This document shows, one piece after another, positions 8,115 through 14,308 of a stretch of DNA of 64,000 bases; the first letter of the stretch is position 1; every line of letters starts with the position of its first letter. The position numbers were made by a program, and so were the translations under genes. Source of the DNA: Candidatus Collierbacteria bacterium RIFOXYD2_FULL_45_13 (GTDB lineage Bacteria > Patescibacteriota > Microgenomatia > UBA1400 > MFAQ01); NCBI GenBank assembly GCA_001774685.1, contig MFAS01000001.1:415557-479556 (forward strand), written 5' to 3'. The notes under the pieces are model-generated. The model saw only the letters and a program-made list of their open reading frames with translations. It searched no databases and was not told the origin of the DNA.

Positions 8115-8864
8115 TTAGAGTTTTTGAGTTTTTTCTTCCTGTCTATTTTTTTCATACAACACCAGAGCCGTGGCCACACTAACATTCAAAGATGCCACAG
8201 ATTTTTGCATAGGGATGTTGATAAAGAAGTCACACTCTTTTTGCAAAGGTTCGGATATTCCTTCGGACTCTCCTCCCATCAGAAAGGCTACCGGACCGGT
8301 CAGTTTTTGTTCATACATCGTCTTGCCCATTTCCACCTCTACTCCTACTACCGGTACGGCATATTCGTGAAGCATCTTTATTGCCTGAAACAAGCTCATC
8401 GGGATCAGGGGTACGTAGGCGGCTCCGCCCATGGAAACTTTGGCCACCACTGGTGTAATTTCATGCACTCCATTTGGAGACGCCACTACGGCGTCGACGC
8501 CGGCAGCCCACGCCGTTCTCAGTATCGCTCCCATATTCTGCTCATAGTCGATTCGATTTAGCAGCAAGATGAAACAATTCCTTTTGTTATCCAATATCTG
8601 TTTCAGGGAAATCACCTCCGGTACATCCATAAGGGCAATGACTCCTTGAGGGTTTCTCGACTCCGCCATTTTGTTCAGATCATCAGTCGGAATAGTTCGG
8701 ATTTGCACTCCTTTTTCTCTGGCCATTTTCTCAATCTCTTTGATCTTCGGGTCCCCGACTGATCCGAGCGCCAGCATCACCGTACCAATTTTTTGTCCGG
8801 AGGACAACCCATCTCTTACCATATTTCTGCCTTCCAAAGTTACGTAGTCTATCTGTTTTGCCAT
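8115..8864 (-). CDS. SpoU-family 23S rRNA (guanosine-2'-O)-methyltransferase, RlmB-like
   Basis: N-terminal substrate-binding domain plus SpoU motifs 'LNRIDYEQNMGAILRTAWAAGVDAVV' and 'LNVSVATALVLYE'. Confidence 0.8.
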   Translation of the reverse strand: MAKQIDYVTLEGRNMVRDGLSSGQKIGTVMLALGSVGDPKIKEIEKMAREKGVQIRTIPTDDLNKMAESRNPQGVIALMDVPEVISLKQILDNKRNCFILLLNRIDYEQNMGAILRTAWAAGVDAVVASPNGVHEITPVVAKVSMGGAAYVPLIPMSLFQAIKMLHEYAVPVVGVEVEMGKTMYEQKLTGPVAFLMGGESEGISEPLQKECDFFINIPMQKSVASLNVSVATALVLYEKNRQEEKTQKL

Positions 8865-8881
8865 AGTTTATTATTATACTT

Positions 8882-10207
8882 GTGCACCGGAAAAAGCGTA
8901 CTCGTCTCACTCATGAAGAGAAGTTTATTATTAGTGGTAGTTCACATATTGGTTTTGGAGGCCAGACCAAGCTACTTCACAAAGTTTTCTCATCGTTACC
9001 GGCTCTAAAGAGCCGTAATTGCCGGCGCTATTTTGCCGGTCAGCTTATCTCCATCATCGGTAGCTGGATGCAAATTGCGGCTCTCGGCTGGCTCACACTT
9101 CAGTTGACCAACTCCGCTTTTATGGTCGGGTTGGTGGCGGCACTGTTTCCCTTACCGGCTCTTTTCTTCTCTCTCTTTGGAGGTATCATCGTTGACCGAT
9201 TTTCCAAAAAGCAGTTGTTACTTATCACCAACTCTTTATCTATGCTCTTAGCCTTTGCCTTGGGTATACTTACTGTTCTGGGAGTTGTTAATATCACCGA
9301 GGTCATTGTTATTTCCTTGTTGGGTGGCATTGTCAGTTCTGTATCTATGCCGGCACACTTTGCCTATCTTAGTGAGCTGGTCGACAAAGAAAATATTTCT
9401 TCAGCCATGTCCATAAACGCCGGCATCTCCAGTCTTGGTCGGGTCCTAGGTCCGGGAATTGCCGGGCTCTACATCGCATTTGCGGGTACTGGAGGAGCCT
9501 TCATTCTCAATGGTCTAAGCTATGTTGCTGTCATCGTTGCTCTTCTACTTATAGACACTCCTTACAAAGTTACCAACCAACATTTGGCACCACTGACCGC
9601 TATCAAAGAGGGGATTGCCTATTCTTTCATGAATCCCATGATACGTTCCATCTTTTTATATGTCAGTGCTATGTCTATTTTTGGCTGGTCCTACACCACC
9701 ATTATTCCCGTCCTAGCGAGAGATGTTTTTCATTCAAACTCTACCGGTATGGGCTATCTTTTCTCATCCATCGGGATTGGGGCTATAGTGGCCACATTAC
9801 TGGTCTCCGCCCTTTCCGGTAAGTTTAGTAAGCTCTCCATCGTCATCTTTGGTAATTCATTATTTTCTCTTAGTCTCTTTCTTTTTTCCTTCACCTCCAA
9901 TCTAAACTTGGGGATATTTTATCTTTTTCTGGCAGGTGGTGGCTTGGTCGCCATTAACGTCATTTTGGGGACCATGGTCCAGTTGATGGCCGATGAAAAA
10001 TACCGTGGTCGTGTTTCCAGTATCTACTATCTTCTTTATGCGGGGCTCTTGTTTCTTGGCAATCTGGAAATTGGTTATCTCACCGACGTTTTTGGTAGCG
10101 GCACAGCTCTTCGCATCAATACTCTGGCTGTCCTTACAATTAGCCTTGCCATCTATTTCACCAAAGACAACCTTCGGTCGGCACAACAGATCTATCTCAA
10201 GTCATAA
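8882..10207 (+). CDS. MFS transporter
   Basis: 12-TM profile with an MFS_1-type N-terminus 'RRYFAGQLISIIGSWMQIAALGW'. Confidence 0.8.
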   Translation: MHRKKRTRLTHEEKFIISGSSHIGFGGQTKLLHKVFSSLPALKSRNCRRYFAGQLISIIGSWMQIAALGWLTLQLTNSAFMVGLVAALFPLPALFFSLFGGIIVDRFSKKQLLLITNSLSMLLAFALGILTVLGVVNITEVIVISLLGGIVSSVSMPAHFAYLSELVDKENISSAMSINAGISSLGRVLGPGIAGLYIAFAGTGGAFILNGLSYVAVIVALLLIDTPYKVTNQHLAPLTAIKEGIAYSFMNPMIRSIFLYVSAMSIFGWSYTTIIPVLARDVFHSNSTGMGYLFSSIGIGAIVATLLVSALSGKFSKLSIVIFGNSLFSLSLFLFSFTSNLNLGIFYLFLAGGGLVAINVILGTMVQLMADEKYRGRVSSIYYLLYAGLLFLGNLEIGYLTDVFGSGTALRINTLAVLTISLAIYFTKDNLRSAQQIYLKS

Positions 10208-10266
10208 AAGATGCTCGGTTTACCCCCAAAAAACCCGCCTTTGCGACGGGTTTCGATAATGTCTTA

Positions 10267-10647
10267 TCAACATTCTGGAAAATATTTCTCAGCCAGCTTC
10301 TTGGCCTGTGTGAAGTAATTATCTCCATCAGTCTTATATCCCTCCGCGGCTTGGTTACGATAAAAACGCAATGGAGGCTCAGCCGGCAGATGATGACTAA
10401 TAAAGACCTCTTCGTGTTTCCAGGTGGCGTAATTGATGATAGCGAGCGCTAGCAGTGTGGCAATTGCTTCAGCTGCATTTTCATCAGTGATGAGGAATAA
10501 TAGCTGACCGGCTTTTCCAGGTTCAAACGAGGCTAGTTGCATCACCACTTCCAGCATATCCGATAAACCAAATGAGCTGGCCAGCTTTGAAACTTCCTTG
10601 ATCACATTATCACTCGGATCAAGATCCAAAATCAGATTGATTACCAT
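10267..10647 (-). CDS. Hypothetical protein
   Basis: 126 aa. No motif. Confidence 0.4.
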   Translation of the reverse strand: MVINLILDLDPSDNVIKEVSKLASSFGLSDMLEVVMQLASFEPGKAGQLLFLITDENAAEAIATLLALAIINYATWKHEEVFISHHLPAEPPLRFYRNQAAEGYKTDGDNYFTQAKKLAEKYFPEC

Positions 10648-10703: not shown

Positions 10704-10732
10704 TTGACAACCCTATAACAAGATGATATAGT
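10704..10732 (+). promoter_or_regulatory. Sigma70-type promoter (TTGACA-17-TATAGT)
   Basis: TTGACA at 10704-10709, 17-nt spacer, TATAGT at 10727-10732. Predicted TSS sits at or next to the ATG at 10738. Confidence 0.45.
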
Positions 10733-10737
10733 ACTAA

Positions 10738-10863
10738 ATGCCAATTTTGGCAAACCAAATGAAAAACACGGTCATAAATATCAGGTTAACTCTTCCACAA
10801 GATCTCGTGGAAGGTTTTACTGGCCTTAACTGTGCCTCGGTCTTTGCGTATATCAATCCGTAA
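10738..10863 (+). CDS. Candidate leaderless leader peptide (41 aa) upstream of ABC exporter
   Basis: ATG 6 nt after the -10 hexamer. ORF MPILANQMKNTVINIRLTLPQDLVEGFTGLNCASVFAYINP ends in TAA 25 nt before a terminator hairpin. Below the 60-aa ORF-track cutoff. Confidence 0.3.
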   Translation: MPILANQMKNTVINIRLTLPQDLVEGFTGLNCASVFAYINP

Positions 10864-10888
10864 TTCGAATTAAATTAGATTTACTCAA

Positions 10889-10915
10889 ACGCCGCGGCCT
10901 ACGCGGCGTTTTTGT
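10889..10915 (+). terminator. Intrinsic terminator / attenuator hairpin in 5' leader of ABC exporter
   Basis: AACGCCGCG-GCCTA-CGCGGCGTT followed by TTTTTGTG. Lies 30 nt upstream of the SD 'AAAGGAGG' of the 10945 gene. Confidence 0.5.
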
Positions 10916-10944
10916 GCGCACTTTAAAAAAACAAAGGAGGTTCT

Positions 10945-12681
10945 ATGTTTCGGAAACTTTGGTCACTCTTGGCACCCTTTCACCGCACGTTTCTCGTTTT
11001 TGTCTTCTTGGCCTTTCTCTACGAGACGGTCCAGTTGGGAAATAGTTATGTCATCAGCCTGGTGGTTACCCTCTTCGGCTCTGGAGTTGCCGCGTATACT
11101 TGGATATTCCTGGTAGCCGGACTACTTCTTTTCGACGAGTTAAACATGAGGCTAGATAACGCTTTTGACTGGCACATAATCGCCAAACAAAGCCACCCTC
11201 TCTACCGTTTTTTGAAACTTTCAGCTATTTCTAAGTTCCTCAAGATGAATATCCCTTGGCACCACAAACACAACTCGGGGACTCTGGTTGGCAAAGTTGG
11301 AGATGGGGTCTGGAAAACACTGGAGATCGTTGATGTCATGAGTTGGGAGTTTGTGCCCACCGTGGTTCAAACCGTTATTAGCCTGATTCCCCTATTTTTC
11401 ATTAGTCCTTGGGTTGCTTTGATTTCGATTGTCACCTTCGTCCTGTTTGCCTGGCTCACCATCAAAGGCAATCGTGAGAAAGAGCCCTTCAGAGCCAAGC
11501 GTCAAGACTACTATGAAGATGAGTGGAACAAATCCATTGCTTCAGTTCAGTCCGTAGAAACCAATTTGATGTTTGGTCAGCAAGAGCGCTTACTGCGCGA
11601 TCAATCTGCAATTCACGACGGCATCATTGGCGAAGCCCTCCAAGAACACCGGCTCGGCATCTTCAAGTACAACCGCTGGCGCATCCGGGTTCTTACCGTT
11701 GCTCGAAGAGTCGTCCTGGTTATCTGGATTCTTCAGCTATTACAGGGTTCACTTACTCTCGCCTCTCTAATCTTTGTTAGTGTTTTGGTAGAGAGGCTAT
11801 TTTCCAGTTTTTGGCGCTTTGCCAGACTTTTGGATCGGGCGGCTCAAAACAGTGAAGGCGCCAAAAGACTGGCCGATCTTCTGAGTGAGGCAGAGCCGGT
11901 CGAGACAGGTTCGATTCAGACATTACCAAGCAAACCTTTGGGGATCAGTATTCAAGATGTTTGTTTCGCCTACGAAGGAGATTATTCTGAAGAAGACGGA
12001 GCCTTGCACGACTTTAGTTTGGATATAGAGCCTGGTCAAGTCACGGCTCTTGTCGGTCCGTCGGGGGCAGGAAAGACCACTATCAGAAAAATCGTCACCC
12101 GTCTTGCCGGATGTCAAAAGGGTTCCATTTTTGTTGGAGGTATAGACATCAACGACTGGGATGGACCTCAACTGCTGGAACAATTTTCCTATGTGCCCCA
12201 AGGTGACGACGTTTATATTTTTGACGAAACTATTCGTTATAACATTTCTTTTCCCCGGCCGGAAGCCACCGATGAGGAAGTCATCAACGCATCAAAGCTA
12301 GCCGGTATTCATGACTTTGTCTTAGGTTTAAAGGATGGCTACAACACTCAGGTGGGGGAAAGGGGCATCCGTCTTTCAGGTGGTCAAAAACAGCGGGTAG
12401 CTCTGGCCAGAGCTATCTTAGCCAATCGGCCCATCCTCATCCTCGATGAAGCCACTAGCGCCGTAGATGCCATTACCGAGAGCGAAATTCAGACCAACAT
12501 GAGGACAATCCTTACAGGAAAAACCGCCCTGGTCATTGCCCATCGGTTATCCACCGTTTGGGGGCTGGCAGACAAGATTGTCGTTATGGATAACGGTAAA
12601 AAGGTCGAAGAGGGCACTCATGCTCAACTGGTGGATCAAGGAGGACTCTACGCCAAAATGGTCTCCTTACAAACAGAATAA
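10945..12681 (+). CDS. ABC transporter, fused permease/ATPase (type I exporter, MsbA/multidrug-like)
   Basis: 6-TM N-domain. Walker A 'GPSGAGKTT', signature 'LSGGQKQRVALARAIL', Walker B 'ILILDEATSAVD'. Strong SD. Confidence 0.9.
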   Translation: MFRKLWSLLAPFHRTFLVFVFLAFLYETVQLGNSYVISLVVTLFGSGVAAYTWIFLVAGLLLFDELNMRLDNAFDWHIIAKQSHPLYRFLKLSAISKFLKMNIPWHHKHNSGTLVGKVGDGVWKTLEIVDVMSWEFVPTVVQTVISLIPLFFISPWVALISIVTFVLFAWLTIKGNREKEPFRAKRQDYYEDEWNKSIASVQSVETNLMFGQQERLLRDQSAIHDGIIGEALQEHRLGIFKYNRWRIRVLTVARRVVLVIWILQLLQGSLTLASLIFVSVLVERLFSSFWRFARLLDRAAQNSEGAKRLADLLSEAEPVETGSIQTLPSKPLGISIQDVCFAYEGDYSEEDGALHDFSLDIEPGQVTALVGPSGAGKTTIRKIVTRLAGCQKGSIFVGGIDINDWDGPQLLEQFSYVPQGDDVYIFDETIRYNISFPRPEATDEEVINASKLAGIHDFVLGLKDGYNTQVGERGIRLSGGQKQRVALARAILANRPILILDEATSAVDAITESEIQTNMRTILTGKTALVIAHRLSTVWGLADKIVVMDNGKKVEEGTHAQLVDQGGLYAKMVSLQTE

Positions 12682-12692
12682 GCTCTCTACAA

Positions 12693-12722
12693 GCCTCGCA
12701 TTTGCGGGGCTTTTTATTTTTT
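12693..12722. terminator. Intrinsic terminator (bidirectional)
   Basis: GCCTCGC-ATTT-GCGGGGC followed by TTTTTATTTTTTT. Confidence 0.65.
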
Positions 12723-13014: not shown

Positions 13015-13704
13015 ATGTCTGTCGCACTTGTTCCGCTTAGTCTGCTCTTATTATTCTTTTCCAAAAGATGGTTAACCATTGAAATAAGTCGACTTGTTCA
13101 CCGTTTCGGCGGAGGGCACCAAAGCCTTATTGTCATCTGGAGTGTTATCTTCCTACCCGGGACTGTTATTCACGAAATGTCTCACTTCTTCTTCGCTATC
13201 ATTACCGGGGCCAGAACCGGCAAGATCGAAATTTTTCCCGAATACTTAGAAGGTGATTGGGAGGATGAAGAAGAGGGGAGGTCTGTCGCTCTGGGTTATG
13301 TTCAGACCCAAAAACTAAATCCGATACAAGGTTTCTTTGTAGGAACCGCCCCGTTTATTGTAGGTATGTTTCTTTTGGTCTGGTTGGCTTCTCTTCTTCA
13401 GACAAGTTATGCCTCCGGTCAAATACTATTTTTATGTCTTCAGGGATATTTATTCTTTACGGTTGCCAACTCTTTTTTCCCAAGTTGGTCTGATATCCGG
13501 CAAACCTTACCCCTAGTGATCATCGCTTTAGTTTGTCTCCTTATAGCCTGGACTCTCGGTCTACAATTATTCATTAGACCCACTGCGCAGATAGTAACCT
13601 TGGCGGACACCATCTCTGCCACCTTTCTCTTTAGCTCTGTTTTCAACCTTCTCATTATTGGCGGCCTGTTTTTAACCAATAAAGTGTTTTTTCGCACCAG
13701 ATAG
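13015..13704 (+). CDS. Membrane-embedded zinc metalloprotease-like protein (HExxH, M50/DUF3267-like)
   Basis: Polytopic membrane protein with 'HEMSH' in a TM segment. Confidence 0.5.
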   Translation: MSVALVPLSLLLLFFSKRWLTIEISRLVHRFGGGHQSLIVIWSVIFLPGTVIHEMSHFFFAIITGARTGKIEIFPEYLEGDWEDEEEGRSVALGYVQTQKLNPIQGFFVGTAPFIVGMFLLVWLASLLQTSYASGQILFLCLQGYLFFTVANSFFPSWSDIRQTLPLVIIALVCLLIAWTLGLQLFIRPTAQIVTLADTISATFLFSSVFNLLIIGGLFLTNKVFFRTR

Positions 13705-13768
13705 AGCGTGTTTGAATATTGTCTTTGCAAAACTCTCTATAATGGAGTCATATCAATTACTTTTCAGC

Positions 13769-14308
13769 ATGAAAAAGTCCCTCCTTCTTCTTCCTGCCGC
13801 CCTGTTGTTTTCTGGTTGTATCTTGTTTCCCCAAGCACCAATCACCGGCACTACACAGCAAAAGGCCGAAAAGCTCTCTCAGATTATTAGTAGTGGTGGC
13901 CAGGCAAACTGTAAAGTGACCAATCTGGCAGACAATACGAGTACCCAAATCACCGTTTCCGGTAAAAAAATGAAAGTGGTTGGCTCCGATTTTGGCGAAG
14001 GTAAAAAAGGCACCATGATCAATGACGGCGTTAATACCTACGTCTGGACCGAAGGTGAGAAAATTGGCTTCAAAACCAAACTGGAAACCGAAAAGCCTCT
14101 CCGGCCTACAGTCACCCTGACTCAGGCGGAATCCGTAAATCCGGCCGAAACAGCGGCAGGTTACGAAGACGATACCAAATACCGGATGGACTGTACTCGA
14201 GGAGGTGTTTCGGACGCCGATTTTACTCCGCCGGCCGACGTCAAATTCACTGACTTCTCGGAAATGATGAAAGCGGTCCCCACTATTCCTACCGTTCCTG
14301 CCAGATAG
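13769..14308 (+). CDS. Lipoprotein, hypothetical
   Basis: Start moved to 'MKKSLLLLPAALLFSGC' (lipobox LFSGC). The ORF-track start at 13712 adds 19 unsupported codons. Confidence 0.55.
   Translation: MKKSLLLLPAALLFSGCILFPQAPITGTTQQKAEKLSQIISSGGQANCKVTNLADNTSTQITVSGKKMKVVGSDFGEGKKGTMINDGVNTYVWTEGEKIGFKTKLETEKPLRPTVTLTQAESVNPAETAAGYEDDTKYRMDCTRGGVSDADFTPPADVKFTDFSEMMKAVPTIPTVPAR

What the first reader, a model, noticed from the sequence alone, without database searches (positions are those of the whole stretch)
10704..10944. Leaderless 41-codon leader ORF plus intrinsic terminator in front of the ABC exporter, a candidate translation-coupled attenuator
A near-consensus promoter (TTGACA-17-TATAGT) places the predicted TSS at or on an ATG (10738). 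That ATG opens a 41-codon ORF, MPILANQMKNTVINIRLTLPQDLVEGFTGLNCASVFAYINP. Twenty-five nt after its stop lies a strong terminator hairpin plus T-run. Only after that come the SD (AAAGGAGG) and start of a single-polypeptide multidrug-type ABC exporter. This layout matches ribosome-stalling attenuators that induce exporters and resistance genes, for example bmrB-bmrCD and erm/cat leaders.
Basis: partly seen in the sequence, partly recalled or inferred. Interest (0 to 1): 0.65.

Follow-up and report, generated by a model that had tools for sequence, protein, structure and literature searches.

The report
Leader-peptide attenuator before ABC exporter
A short reading frame and two mutually exclusive RNA hairpins in front of an ABC exporter gene form a classic translation-sensing on/off switch, and the switch is conserved across many uncultivated "candidate phyla radiation" (CPR) bacteria, for which I found no published example.

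Summary
Two details need correction. The conserved start codon is ATG 10759 (34 codons), not the "leaderless" ATG 10738. The ABC protein is a 578-aa half-transporter.

The window comes from a Candidatus Collierbacteria (CPR) genome. I compared 24 distinct leaders taken from ABC orthologues of 53-90% identity. Every one has an SD-less 30-46-codon ORF, a mid-ORF hairpin, and a GC hairpin ahead of the ABC gene.

The key new result is an antiterminator. The last codons of the ORF (10831-10855) pair with the spacer, the terminator 5' arm and its loop (10877-10901).
- The pairing covaries across lineages: 77% of cells paired against 69±1 in shuffles, and 18 pairs changed on both sides, with 0 of 500 shuffles reaching either value.
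- It forms in the minimum-energy fold of every transcript truncated before the 3' arm.
- In the window it is iso-energetic with the terminator (-18.0 against -18.2 kcal/mol).

The near-invariant codons of "CASVFAYI" are therefore largely an RNA constraint. The ABC gene's own synonymous sites are saturated.

Best reading: a ribosome-dependent transcription attenuator of the trp/bmrB kind. Leader translation destroys the antiterminator and switches the gene off. Delayed translation switches it on. The signal it senses is unknown. I rate it a new member of a known kind.

The parts
10704..10732 (+). Sigma-70-type promoter: -35 TTGACA (10704-10709), 17-nt spacer, extended -10 TGaTATAGT (10724-10732). 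The predicted transcription start is about 10738-10740.
   Evidence: 11/12 match to consensus. The -35 hexamer is invariant and the -10 is conserved in 12/12 Collierbacteria-type leaders.
10739..10752 (+). P1: a hairpin at the very 5' end of the predicted transcript (UGCCAAUUUUGGCA). It is probably an mRNA-stabilising or start-site-presenting element.
   Evidence: Appears in the MFE fold. Relatives keep a hairpin here with different sequences: GCCG/CGGC, GUCU/AGAC, GUCC/GGAC, GGCAG/CUGCC.
10738..10740 (+). It is in frame with the conserved ORF but occurs only in this genome.
   Evidence: Relatives have TTG, CTT or other bases at this position.
10759..10863 (+). Conserved leader ORF: 34 codons plus stop (MKNTVINIRLTLPQDLVEGFTGLNCASVFAYINP), with no Shine-Dalgarno sequence.
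   Evidence: The ATG is conserved. The ATG-to-Cys/Phe distance is 21-25 codons within the Collierbacteria group, so all indels there are in frame. The ORF is open in every lineage. It is annotated as a 34-aa hypothetical protein. The SD is absent in 23/24 leaders. pN/pS for codons 2-24 is about 0.35-0.85 in nine of ten close pairs, with one pair at 1.5.
10788..10816 (+). P2: a hairpin in the middle of the ORF, followed by UUUUAC. It may be an RNA polymerase pause or synchronisation hairpin (inferred).
   Evidence: -11.6 kcal/mol, z = -4.0. Stem pairs show compensatory changes in relatives. A hairpin occupies the same place in the minimum-energy fold of most lineages.
10831..10855 (+). Antiterminator 5' strand ('region 2'): UGU GCC UCG GUC UUU GCG UAU AUC A, that is codons Cys25-Ile32.
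   Evidence: Codons are invariant or near-invariant, although 239 of 240 conserved residues of the ABC gene vary their codon. It pairs with 10877-10901.
10877..10901 (+). Antiterminator 3' strand ('region 3'): end of the spacer, the terminator 5' arm and the loop (AGAUUUACUCAAACGCCGCGGCCUA).
   Evidence: 19 of 25 positions pair in the window. The antiterminator hairpin is -18.0 kcal/mol, z = -2.9. Covariation is shown.
10887..10913 (+). Intrinsic terminator ('regions 3:4'): a 10-bp stem, loop GCCUA, and a U-run at 10909-10913.
   Evidence: -18.2 kcal/mol, z = -4.05. Conserved in relatives, with compensatory changes in L010, L053, L055 and L056.
10917..10927 (+). Conserved motif GCACUUUAAA between the terminator and the SD. 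Its role is unknown.
   Evidence: GCAC(C)UUUAA-like sequence lies 15-20 nt 5' of the SD in nearly all lineages.
10933..12681 (+). SD AAAGGAGG (10933-10940) and the regulated gene: a 578-aa type-IV (ABCB/Sav1866/MsbA-like) ABC exporter half-transporter (10945-12681).
   Evidence: Pfam ABC_membrane plus ABC_tran; NCBIfam MsbA-related hits below the curated cut-offs. The nearest half-transporter-length solved structure is Sav1866, with the top hits being eukaryotic ABCB proteins. A strong SD is present in 23/24 orthologues.
12691..12722 (+). Terminator of the ABC gene, which closes the transcription unit.
   Evidence: 9-bp GC-rich stem plus TTTATTTTTT, 10 nt after the stop codon.

Best explanation
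This is a ribosome-dependent transcription attenuator that gates a monocistronic ABC-exporter gene.

Transcription starts at the conserved promoter near 10739. The leader RNA can adopt two mutually exclusive folds.
- Antiterminator (AT): the last eight codons of the leader ORF (10831-10855) pair with the spacer end, the 5' arm and the loop of the terminator (10877-10901).
- Terminator (T): 10887-10911 plus the U-run.

The AT 5' strand lies inside the ORF. The ORF always stops between the two AT strands. A ribosome that translates the leader promptly therefore unwinds or occupies the AT strand. The terminator then forms and transcription ends about 30 nt before the ABC start codon (OFF). If the leader ribosome is late, slowed or stalled in the first ~20 codons, or never initiates, the AT forms first. 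It sequesters the terminator's 5' arm, and polymerase reads into the ABC gene (ON).

Shown by sequence and comparison: the promoter, the conserved ORF, the terminator, the covarying antiterminator, their overlap, and the lack of any other promoter for the ABC gene.

Inferred: that the ORF is translated, the direction of the logic, a pause role for the mid-ORF hairpin P2, and the nature of the signal. The signal is most likely general slowing of translation, for example by ribosome-targeting compounds or low translation capacity, as for B. subtilis bmrB-bmrCD.
For: (1) Anatomy in the window. AT is -18.0 kcal/mol and T is -18.2 kcal/mol, and they share 10887-10901.

(2) The ABC gene depends on read-through. 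Only 31 nt separate the U-run from the ATG, and no promoter-like site lies between them. The gene has its own terminator.

(3) Conservation. All 24 distinct leaders, upstream of ABC orthologues of 53-90% identity (Collierbacteria, Woesebacteria, WWE3 and others), have the ORF followed by a hairpin. The ABC gene is the only neighbour conserved throughout.

(4) RNA-level constraint. In the ABC gene 1 of 240 invariant-residue columns keeps one codon, and 4-fold sites are 30-47% identical. The leader codons TGT, GCG and TAT are invariant, and GCC, TCG and TTT nearly so. A degenerate-codon search of metagenomes for CAS[VA]FAYI returned only same-codon copies, all next to the ABC gene where the contig reached it.

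(5) Antiterminator covariation. 12-16 of 17 core positions pair in 23/24 leaders. Own-partner pairing scores 311 against 270.8±6.9 when partners are permuted, with 0 of 20,000 permutations reaching it. The counting tool gives 77.1% of cells paired against 69.1±1.0, 18 pairs changed on both sides against 11.7±1.6, and a covariation score of 0.311 against 0.191±0.013, each with 0 of 500 shuffles reaching it. Slid registers give 33-51%.

(6) Unbiased folding. The MFE of every transcript truncated before the 3' arm contains the AT (12-21 pairs). Full-length leaders mostly switch to T, with the AT fully replaced in 15 of 24.

(7) Architecture. The stop codon always lies after the AT 5' strand and before or at the 5' arm.

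(8) The experimentally established bmrB-bmrCD system uses the same logic (PMC4191407).
Against: The leader ORF has no Shine-Dalgarno sequence in 23/24 lineages, whereas the ABC gene has a strong one. Its translation is therefore inferred only from ORF conservation and in-frame indels.

No run of regulatory codons or recognisable arrest motif was found, so the signal is unknown.

7 of 24 lineages have the hairpin without a U-run. Output there may not be intrinsic termination.

A trp-style anti-antiterminator (1:2 hairpin) is weak and not significant. The no-translation state therefore cannot be predicted.

I chose the AT register by eye, which inflates the percentage paired relative to slid registers. 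It does not inflate the permutation or covariation measures.

There are no transcript data. The transcription start and termination are predictions.
Confidence: 0.7

Rival explanations
1. The antiterminator/terminator switch is real, but a trans-acting factor sets it (an RNA-binding protein, small RNA or small-molecule ligand). The small ORF is not translated, or its translation is irrelevant.
For: The ORF has no SD in 23/24 lineages. The conserved 'peptide' block is explained by RNA pairing. Two lineages (L010, L052) break the peptide frame but keep the pairing.
Against: The ORF stays open in all 24 lineages, from a conserved ATG through to a stop located between the two AT strands. Indels of five different sizes are all multiples of three. 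Third-position variation with a conserved residue is seen, for example Thr4 as ACG/ACC/ACT/ACA. There is no Rfam match. Outside the AT/T strands there is no family-wide conserved unpaired core that could form a ligand pocket. No regulator gene is conserved nearby.
Confidence: 0.13
2. The small ORF encodes a functional peptide that the adjacent ABC transporter exports, such as a pheromone or bacteriocin-like cargo with a conserved C-terminal core. The hairpin is then a leaky terminator that sets the peptide-to-exporter ratio.
For: The small gene and the exporter always occur together. The C-terminal block ...G(L/S)NCASVFAYI is conserved, some relatives have a Gly-Gly before it, and the frame is kept in 22/24. 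An M50B-like membrane peptidase follows the exporter in the closest relatives.
Against: The conserved residues have near-invariant codons, while true protein-level conservation in the same genomes shows saturated synonymous sites. The block covaries with the terminator arm. The exporter has no C39 peptidase domain. The M50B-like gene and all other neighbours are not conserved beyond the close relatives. The N-terminal two-thirds are only weakly constrained, with pN/pS of 0.35-0.85 in nine of ten pairs. The C-terminal tails differ completely between lineages (INP, KKKRKP, HQILLILPS...). Two lineages are frame-shifted.
Confidence: 0.07
3. A sequence-specific nascent-peptide arrest (erm/cat/TnaC-like) at the conserved ...ASVFAY motif, triggered by a drug or metabolite, is the sensor.
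For: The motif [FLC]-A-[STA]-[VA]-[FL]-[AVG]-[YRH] stays in frame in 22/24 lineages, including ones with different codons: GCC GCA GUC CUU GUA CGC in L051 and GCU GCG GUU CUU GCG CGU in L057. From background knowledge, not tested here: Ala, Ser or Thr at the penultimate position favours arrest by chloramphenicol- or linezolid-type drugs.
Against: A ribosome arrested on this motif would sit on the AT 5' strand and favour termination. For an exporter that is the opposite of induction (inference from the geometry). Codon changes in the motif track the terminator arm. L010 and L052 read the strand in other frames. The distance from the motif to the stop codon varies from 0 to 9 codons.
Confidence: 0.07

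Closest known systems
bmrB-bmrCD leader of Bacillus subtilis (ribosome-mediated transcriptional attenuation of a multidrug ABC exporter; PMC4191407)
   Same: Both have a small leader ORF upstream of ABCB-type half-transporter gene(s), an intrinsic terminator, and a less or equally stable antiterminator whose formation is prevented by efficient leader translation. In both, slowed translation gives read-through.
   Different: In bmrB the terminator lies inside the ORF. Here the ORF stops 23 nt before it. BmrCD is a two-gene heterodimer, whereas here there is a single gene. The leader ORF here has no SD. I did not align the two leader peptides. The inducer is unknown here, while 50S-targeting antibiotics are shown for bmrB. 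The host is a CPR bacterium.
Classical amino-acid operon attenuators (E. coli trpL and similar)
   Same: Both have a leader ORF and an overlapping antiterminator/terminator pair, with the stop codon placed so that a completed ribosome blocks the antiterminator strand.
   Different: There is no run of regulatory codons for one amino acid. The 1:2 anti-antiterminator is weak or absent. The regulated gene is an exporter, not a biosynthetic operon.
Antibiotic-responsive leaders found by Term-seq, and erm/cat/vmlR-type attenuators
   Same: All are conditional premature termination (or SD masking) set by ribosome behaviour on a short upstream ORF, in front of a resistance or efflux gene.
   Different: Those systems depend on defined nascent-peptide/drug arrest sites. 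Here the conserved peptide block coincides with an RNA pairing strand, and no arrest site could be identified.

Membership tests
Ribosome-dependent (leader-peptide) transcription attenuator | Short ORF in the 5' leader, conserved as an ORF | tested here: met
   The ORF is open in 24/24 lineages, the ATG is conserved, and indels are in frame.
Ribosome-dependent (leader-peptide) transcription attenuator | Intrinsic terminator between the leader ORF and the structural gene, with no other promoter for that gene | tested here: met
   Window hairpin at -18.2 kcal/mol plus UUUUU, with 31 nt to the ATG and no promoter-like site between. A U-run is present in 17/24 lineages and absent in 7.
Ribosome-dependent (leader-peptide) transcription attenuator | Alternative antiterminator helix that sequesters the terminator's 5' arm, supported by covariation | tested here: met
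   (0 of 500 and 0 of 20,000 controls reach the observed values). It forms in 24/24 truncated-transcript MFE folds.
Ribosome-dependent (leader-peptide) transcription attenuator | The antiterminator strand lies within the ORF or ribosome footprint, so that ribosome position decides the fold | tested here: met
   The AT 5' strand is codons 25-32. The stop codon always falls between the two AT strands.
Ribosome-dependent (leader-peptide) transcription attenuator | The leader ORF is actually translated, and read-through responds to its translation | not testable with these tools
   No transcript or ribosome data are available. The absence of an SD is a caution.
Ribosome-dependent (leader-peptide) transcription attenuator | Identifiable sensing feature (regulatory codons or an arrest site) | tested here: inconclusive
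   No enrichment of a single amino acid and no motif conserved independently of the RNA pairing.
bmrB-bmrCD family proper | Terminator embedded in the leader ORF; two adjacent half-transporter genes | tested here: not met
   The ORF ends at 10863 and the terminator starts at 10887. There is a single ABC gene followed by its own terminator. It works like bmrB but is not a member.
Nascent-peptide arrest leaders (ErmCL, CatA86L, TnaC, SecM) | Arrest motif conserved at the amino-acid level independently of codon choice, and at a fixed position relative to the stall or stop | tested here: inconclusive
   Within Collierbacteria the codons are invariant. Across the family the motif stays in frame in 22/24, but it tracks the terminator arm. 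The distance to the stop codon varies, and 2 lineages are frame-shifted.
Exported peptide precursor with dedicated ABC exporter (bacteriocin or pheromone loci) | Processing or export signature (double-glycine leader with a C39 peptidase domain on the transporter, or conserved maturation, immunity or receptor genes) | tested here: not met
   The transporter has only ABC_membrane plus ABC_tran. No other neighbour is conserved.
Known riboswitch or RNA family (Rfam 15) | Match to a curated covariance model | tested here: not met
   The only hits are below-threshold chance matches. The best is isrD at 20.1 bits against a gathering score of 37, on the terminator itself.

The most novel reading that the evidence does not exclude
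The SD-less leader ORF may act as a gauge of the cell's capacity to initiate and elongate translation, or it may be a dual-function leader whose peptide also acts in trans or is handled by the exporter. In that case a near-universal ABC exporter of Microgenomates/CPR bacteria would be switched on specifically when their minimal translation apparatus is compromised. This would be an ancient, phylum-wide stress circuit in organisms with almost no known regulation.
Probability: 0.12. Interest if true: 0.75.

Novelty: new member of a known kind. Interest (0 to 1): 0.5.

Why it matters
Gene regulation in CPR/Patescibacteria is almost unexplored, because most of these organisms are uncultivated. My literature searches found no paper that links them to leader-peptide attenuation.

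This element is a well-supported cis-regulatory switch. It is conserved from Collierbacteria to Woesebacteria and WWE3, always in front of one particular ABCB-type exporter.

It yields concrete predictions that can be tested in heterologous or in-vitro systems. It marks this exporter as a conditionally expressed, probably stress- or drug-responsive function. It is also a clean example of a 'conserved peptide' that is largely a shadow of an RNA structure, which is a caution for small-protein annotation.

Tried and rejected
The 41-aa version found only the identical annotated 34-aa protein.
- A viral-contig scan for the peptide found nothing.
- Rfam gave no family.
- I considered masking of the ABC SD by the CCUC of region 2, which appears in the window's full-length MFE. 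I rejected it because it is only 4-5 bp and is not kept where the SD differs, as in L009.
- I considered pairing of GCGUAU with the terminator loop and 3' arm. It turned out to be part of the longer antiterminator in a different register.
- I tested a trp-like anti-antiterminator (GAGGC:GCCUC and similar). It is present at 5 bp or more in 18/24 leaders but is not better than shuffles, with a median p of 0.23. It is weak in the window itself, so I left it as tentative.
- I looked for conserved partner genes such as the M50B-like peptidase, a regulator or a receptor. None is conserved beyond the close relatives.
- I looked for other copies of the region-2 motif in the window. The only other match is its own partner strand.

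Full report
**Observation.**
- The best sigma-70-like site in the area is TTGACA-17-TATAGT with an upstream TG (10704-10732, 11/12).
- ATG 10738 opens a 41-codon ORF with the quoted translation, ending at 10863.
- A 10-bp GC-rich hairpin with a U-run lies at 10887-10913 (-18.2 kcal/mol, z = -4.05). The simple scanner missed it only because the stem runs into the flanking A and U tracts.
- AAAGGAGG at 10933-10940 precedes the ATG of a 578-aa protein at 10945.
- That protein is a TMD+NBD half-transporter of the ABCB/MsbA/Sav1866 type, not a full-length single-polypeptide transporter.
- The leader as a whole is much more structured than shuffled controls (z = -4.1) and matches no Rfam family.

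**Where it comes from, and comparative material.** Close relatives of the ABC protein are in Candidatus Collierbacteria and related CPR (Patescibacteria) assemblies. The identical protein and the identical 34-aa small protein are annotated in Collierbacteria genomes.

I collected leaders by three routes:
- one-genome-per-species contigs (L001-L011);
- a metagenome scan with degenerate codons for the peptide motif (L035-L048);
- look-ups of progressively more distant ABC orthologues, 64% down to 53% identity, including Woesebacteria and WWE3 (L049-L060).

This gave 24 distinct leaders. In all of them the 230-450 nt upstream of the ABC gene carry a 30-46-codon ORF followed by a GC hairpin. The ABC gene is the only neighbour conserved throughout. 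The M50B-like membrane protein downstream in the window is kept only in the closest relatives.

**The ORF.** The ATG at 10738 is not conserved. The conserved start is the in-frame ATG at 10759, giving MKNTVINIRLTLPQDLVEGFTGLNCASVFAYINP. Public annotation also calls this 34-aa version.

The ORF behaves as a genuine ORF.
- The ATG is invariant.
- The distance from the ATG to the conserved 3' block takes five different values within the Collierbacteria group alone (21-25 codons), all multiples of three.
- The frame is open in every lineage.
- Some codons vary only at the third position, for example Thr4 as ACG/ACC/ACT/ACA.
- Codons 2-24 are only weakly constrained as protein, with pN/pS of about 0.35-0.85 in nine of ten close pairs and 1.5 in the tenth.
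- The ORF lacks a Shine-Dalgarno sequence in 23 of 24 lineages (anti-SD duplex about -1.5 kcal/mol). The ABC gene has a strong one in 23 of 24 (about -12 kcal/mol).

**The conserved 'peptide' block is largely an RNA constraint.** I compared ten ABC orthologues. Only 1 of 240 columns with an invariant amino acid also keeps an invariant codon. Four-fold sites are 30-47% identical, so synonymous sites are saturated.

In the leader, by contrast, TGT, GCG and TAT are invariant, and GCC, TCG and TTT are almost so. A metagenome search that allowed every codon choice for CAS[VA]FAYI recovered only copies with these same codons. Every recovered copy sits next to the ABC gene wherever the contig extends that far. 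The spacer end (UACUCAAA) and even the terminator loop are conserved as well.

**The antiterminator.** The conserved blocks are complementary.
- The strand 5'-UGUGCCUCGGUCUUUGCGUAUAUCA-3' (10831-10855) pairs with 5'-AGAUUUACUCAAACGCCGCGGCCUA-3' (10877-10901). The second strand comprises the spacer end, the whole 5' arm of the terminator and its loop.
- A plain pattern search for the region-2 motif finds only itself and, on the other strand, its partner.
- In the window this hairpin has -18.0 kcal/mol, against -18.2 for the terminator. The two share 10887-10901, so they are mutually exclusive.
- Across the 24 leaders, 12-16 of the 17 core positions pair in 23 of them. The exception, L057, needs a one-base bulge.
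- Partners change together. Examples are GCCUCGG/CCGCGGC in Collierbacteria, GCUUCGG/CCGCAGC in L003, GCCACGG/CCGUGGC in L053, GCCACGGC/GCUGUGGC in L055, GCCGUGGCG/CGCUGCGGU in L056, GCCGCAGU/ACUGUGGU in L051 and ACCACGGC/GCUGUGGU in L058.
- When partners are permuted among 16 lineages, own-partner pairing (311) exceeds every one of 20,000 permutations (270.8±6.9).
- The pair-counting tool gives 77.1% of cells paired against 69.1±1.0 in shuffles. It gives 18 pairs with changes on both sides against 11.7±1.6. The covariation score is 0.311 against 0.191±0.013. No shuffle out of 500 reaches any of these values. Slid registers give only 33-51% paired.
- As an unbiased check, I folded each transcript from just upstream of the ATG to just before the terminator's 3' arm. 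The minimum-energy structure contained the antiterminator in all 24 (12-21 pairs). In the full-length leaders the terminator fully replaces it in 15 of 24, and at least six terminator pairs form in 21.

**Architecture and logic.** The antiterminator's 5' strand is the last eight or so codons of the ORF. In every lineage the stop codon falls after this strand and before or at the 5' arm.

The ABC gene has no room for a promoter of its own. Only 31 nt separate the U-run from the ATG, and no promoter-like site lies there. The gene is closed by its own strong terminator. Expression therefore requires read-through of the leader terminator.

The simplest reading is the classical one. A ribosome that follows polymerase through the leader melts or covers the antiterminator strand, the terminator forms and transcription stops. 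A ribosome that is late or stalled in the first ~20 codons, or absent, lets the antiterminator form and the ABC gene is transcribed. This is the logic demonstrated experimentally for bmrB-bmrCD in Bacillus subtilis. There, efficient leader translation prevents the less stable antiterminator, and 50S-targeting antibiotics induce read-through (PMC4191407).

The mid-ORF hairpin P2 (10788-10816, followed by UUUUAC) covaries in relatives, and a counterpart appears in the folds of most lineages. I suggest it is a polymerase pause site that synchronises transcription with translation. That role is an inference.

A trp-like anti-antiterminator (for example GAGGC:GCCUC) can be drawn in 18 of 24 leaders. 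It is not better than chance and is weak in the window.

**What remains open.**
- Translation of an SD-less ORF is inferred, not shown.
- The signal is unknown. There is no run of codons for one amino acid.
- The conserved residues ([FLC]-A-[STA]-[VA]-[FL]-[AVG]-[YRH]) coincide with the pairing strand. A ribosome arrested on them would favour termination rather than induction.
- Two lineages (L010, L052) read that strand in another frame while keeping the pairing. This argues that translation through the strand matters more than the peptide's identity. The frame is nevertheless kept in 22 of 24, so a peptide contribution cannot be excluded.
- Seven of 24 lineages have the hairpin without a U-run. 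In those the output may differ.
- A conserved GCAC(C)UUUAA motif just 5' of the ABC SD is unexplained.

**Comparison and novelty.** The element works like the bmrB-bmrCD leader and the trp-type attenuators, but it is not a member of the bmrB family. Its ORF ends before the terminator, it precedes a single transporter gene, and I did not test the two leader peptides for similarity.

It does not meet the criteria for a bacteriocin or pheromone export locus. It has no peptidase domain and no conserved partner genes, and its conservation is at the RNA level. It also matches no known RNA family.

My searches found no paper connecting CPR/Patescibacteria with leader-peptide attenuation.

I rate it a new member of a known kind. 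It is well supported, phylogenetically broad within CPR and mechanistically conventional, and its input is unknown. Interest is 0.5.

Noticed in passing
window 10917-10927 (and the equivalent position in L001-L060): A GCAC(C)UUUAA-like motif lies 15-20 nt 5' of the ABC gene's SD in nearly all lineages, including distant ones. It could pair locally with the AAAG of the SD, or it could be a processing or standby site. Its role is unknown.
   Followed up: partly
L050, L051, L054, L055, L057, L058, L060 (hairpin just upstream of the ABC start at about 1501): In 7 of 24 lineages the hairpin that covaries with the ORF's 3' end is not followed by a U-run. It may not act as an intrinsic terminator there, and the output could be translational or factor-dependent.
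   Followed up: partly
L010:2743-3003 and L052 (about 230-340 nt upstream of 1501): These two leaders carry a 1-nt frame change in or just before the conserved block. The peptide tail changes, but the RNA pairing and an open frame are kept. This could be real divergence or assembly error.
   Followed up: partly
window 12691-12722: A strong intrinsic terminator (AAGCCTCGCATTTGCGGGGCTT plus a T-run) sits 10 nt after the ABC stop codon, so the leader plus the ABC gene form a monocistronic unit. It also shows that this organism uses canonical hairpin-plus-U terminators.
   Followed up: yes
window 8115-10647: The upstream neighbours are a SpoU-family rRNA 2'-O-methyltransferase (RlmB-like, 8115-8864, minus strand), an MFS efflux-type transporter (8882-10207) and a divergent 126-aa protein with no family match (10267-10647, minus strand). 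The 126-aa protein is conserved only in close relatives. The efflux and rRNA-methylase neighbourhood is suggestive of drug defence but is not conserved.
   Followed up: partly
window 13015-14308: A 229-aa protein with a weak Peptidase_M50B-like match (below the Pfam cut-off) and a 198-aa protein of unknown family follow the ABC gene. They are syntenic only in the closest relatives. In L005, L007 and L046 the 198-aa homologue lies upstream instead.
   Followed up: partly
L002, L003, L005, L007, L009, L010 (record titles): Several MAGs titled 'uncultured Pseudomonadales bacterium' carry this Collierbacteria-type ABC gene at 68-86% identity, and the leader wherever the contig reaches upstream. 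The taxonomic label of those records looks wrong.
   Followed up: no
L059:1501: The called start of the ABC gene (594 aa) sits immediately after the leader terminator's U-run. The true start is probably about 16 codons downstream, so this looks like a gene-call artefact.
   Followed up: no
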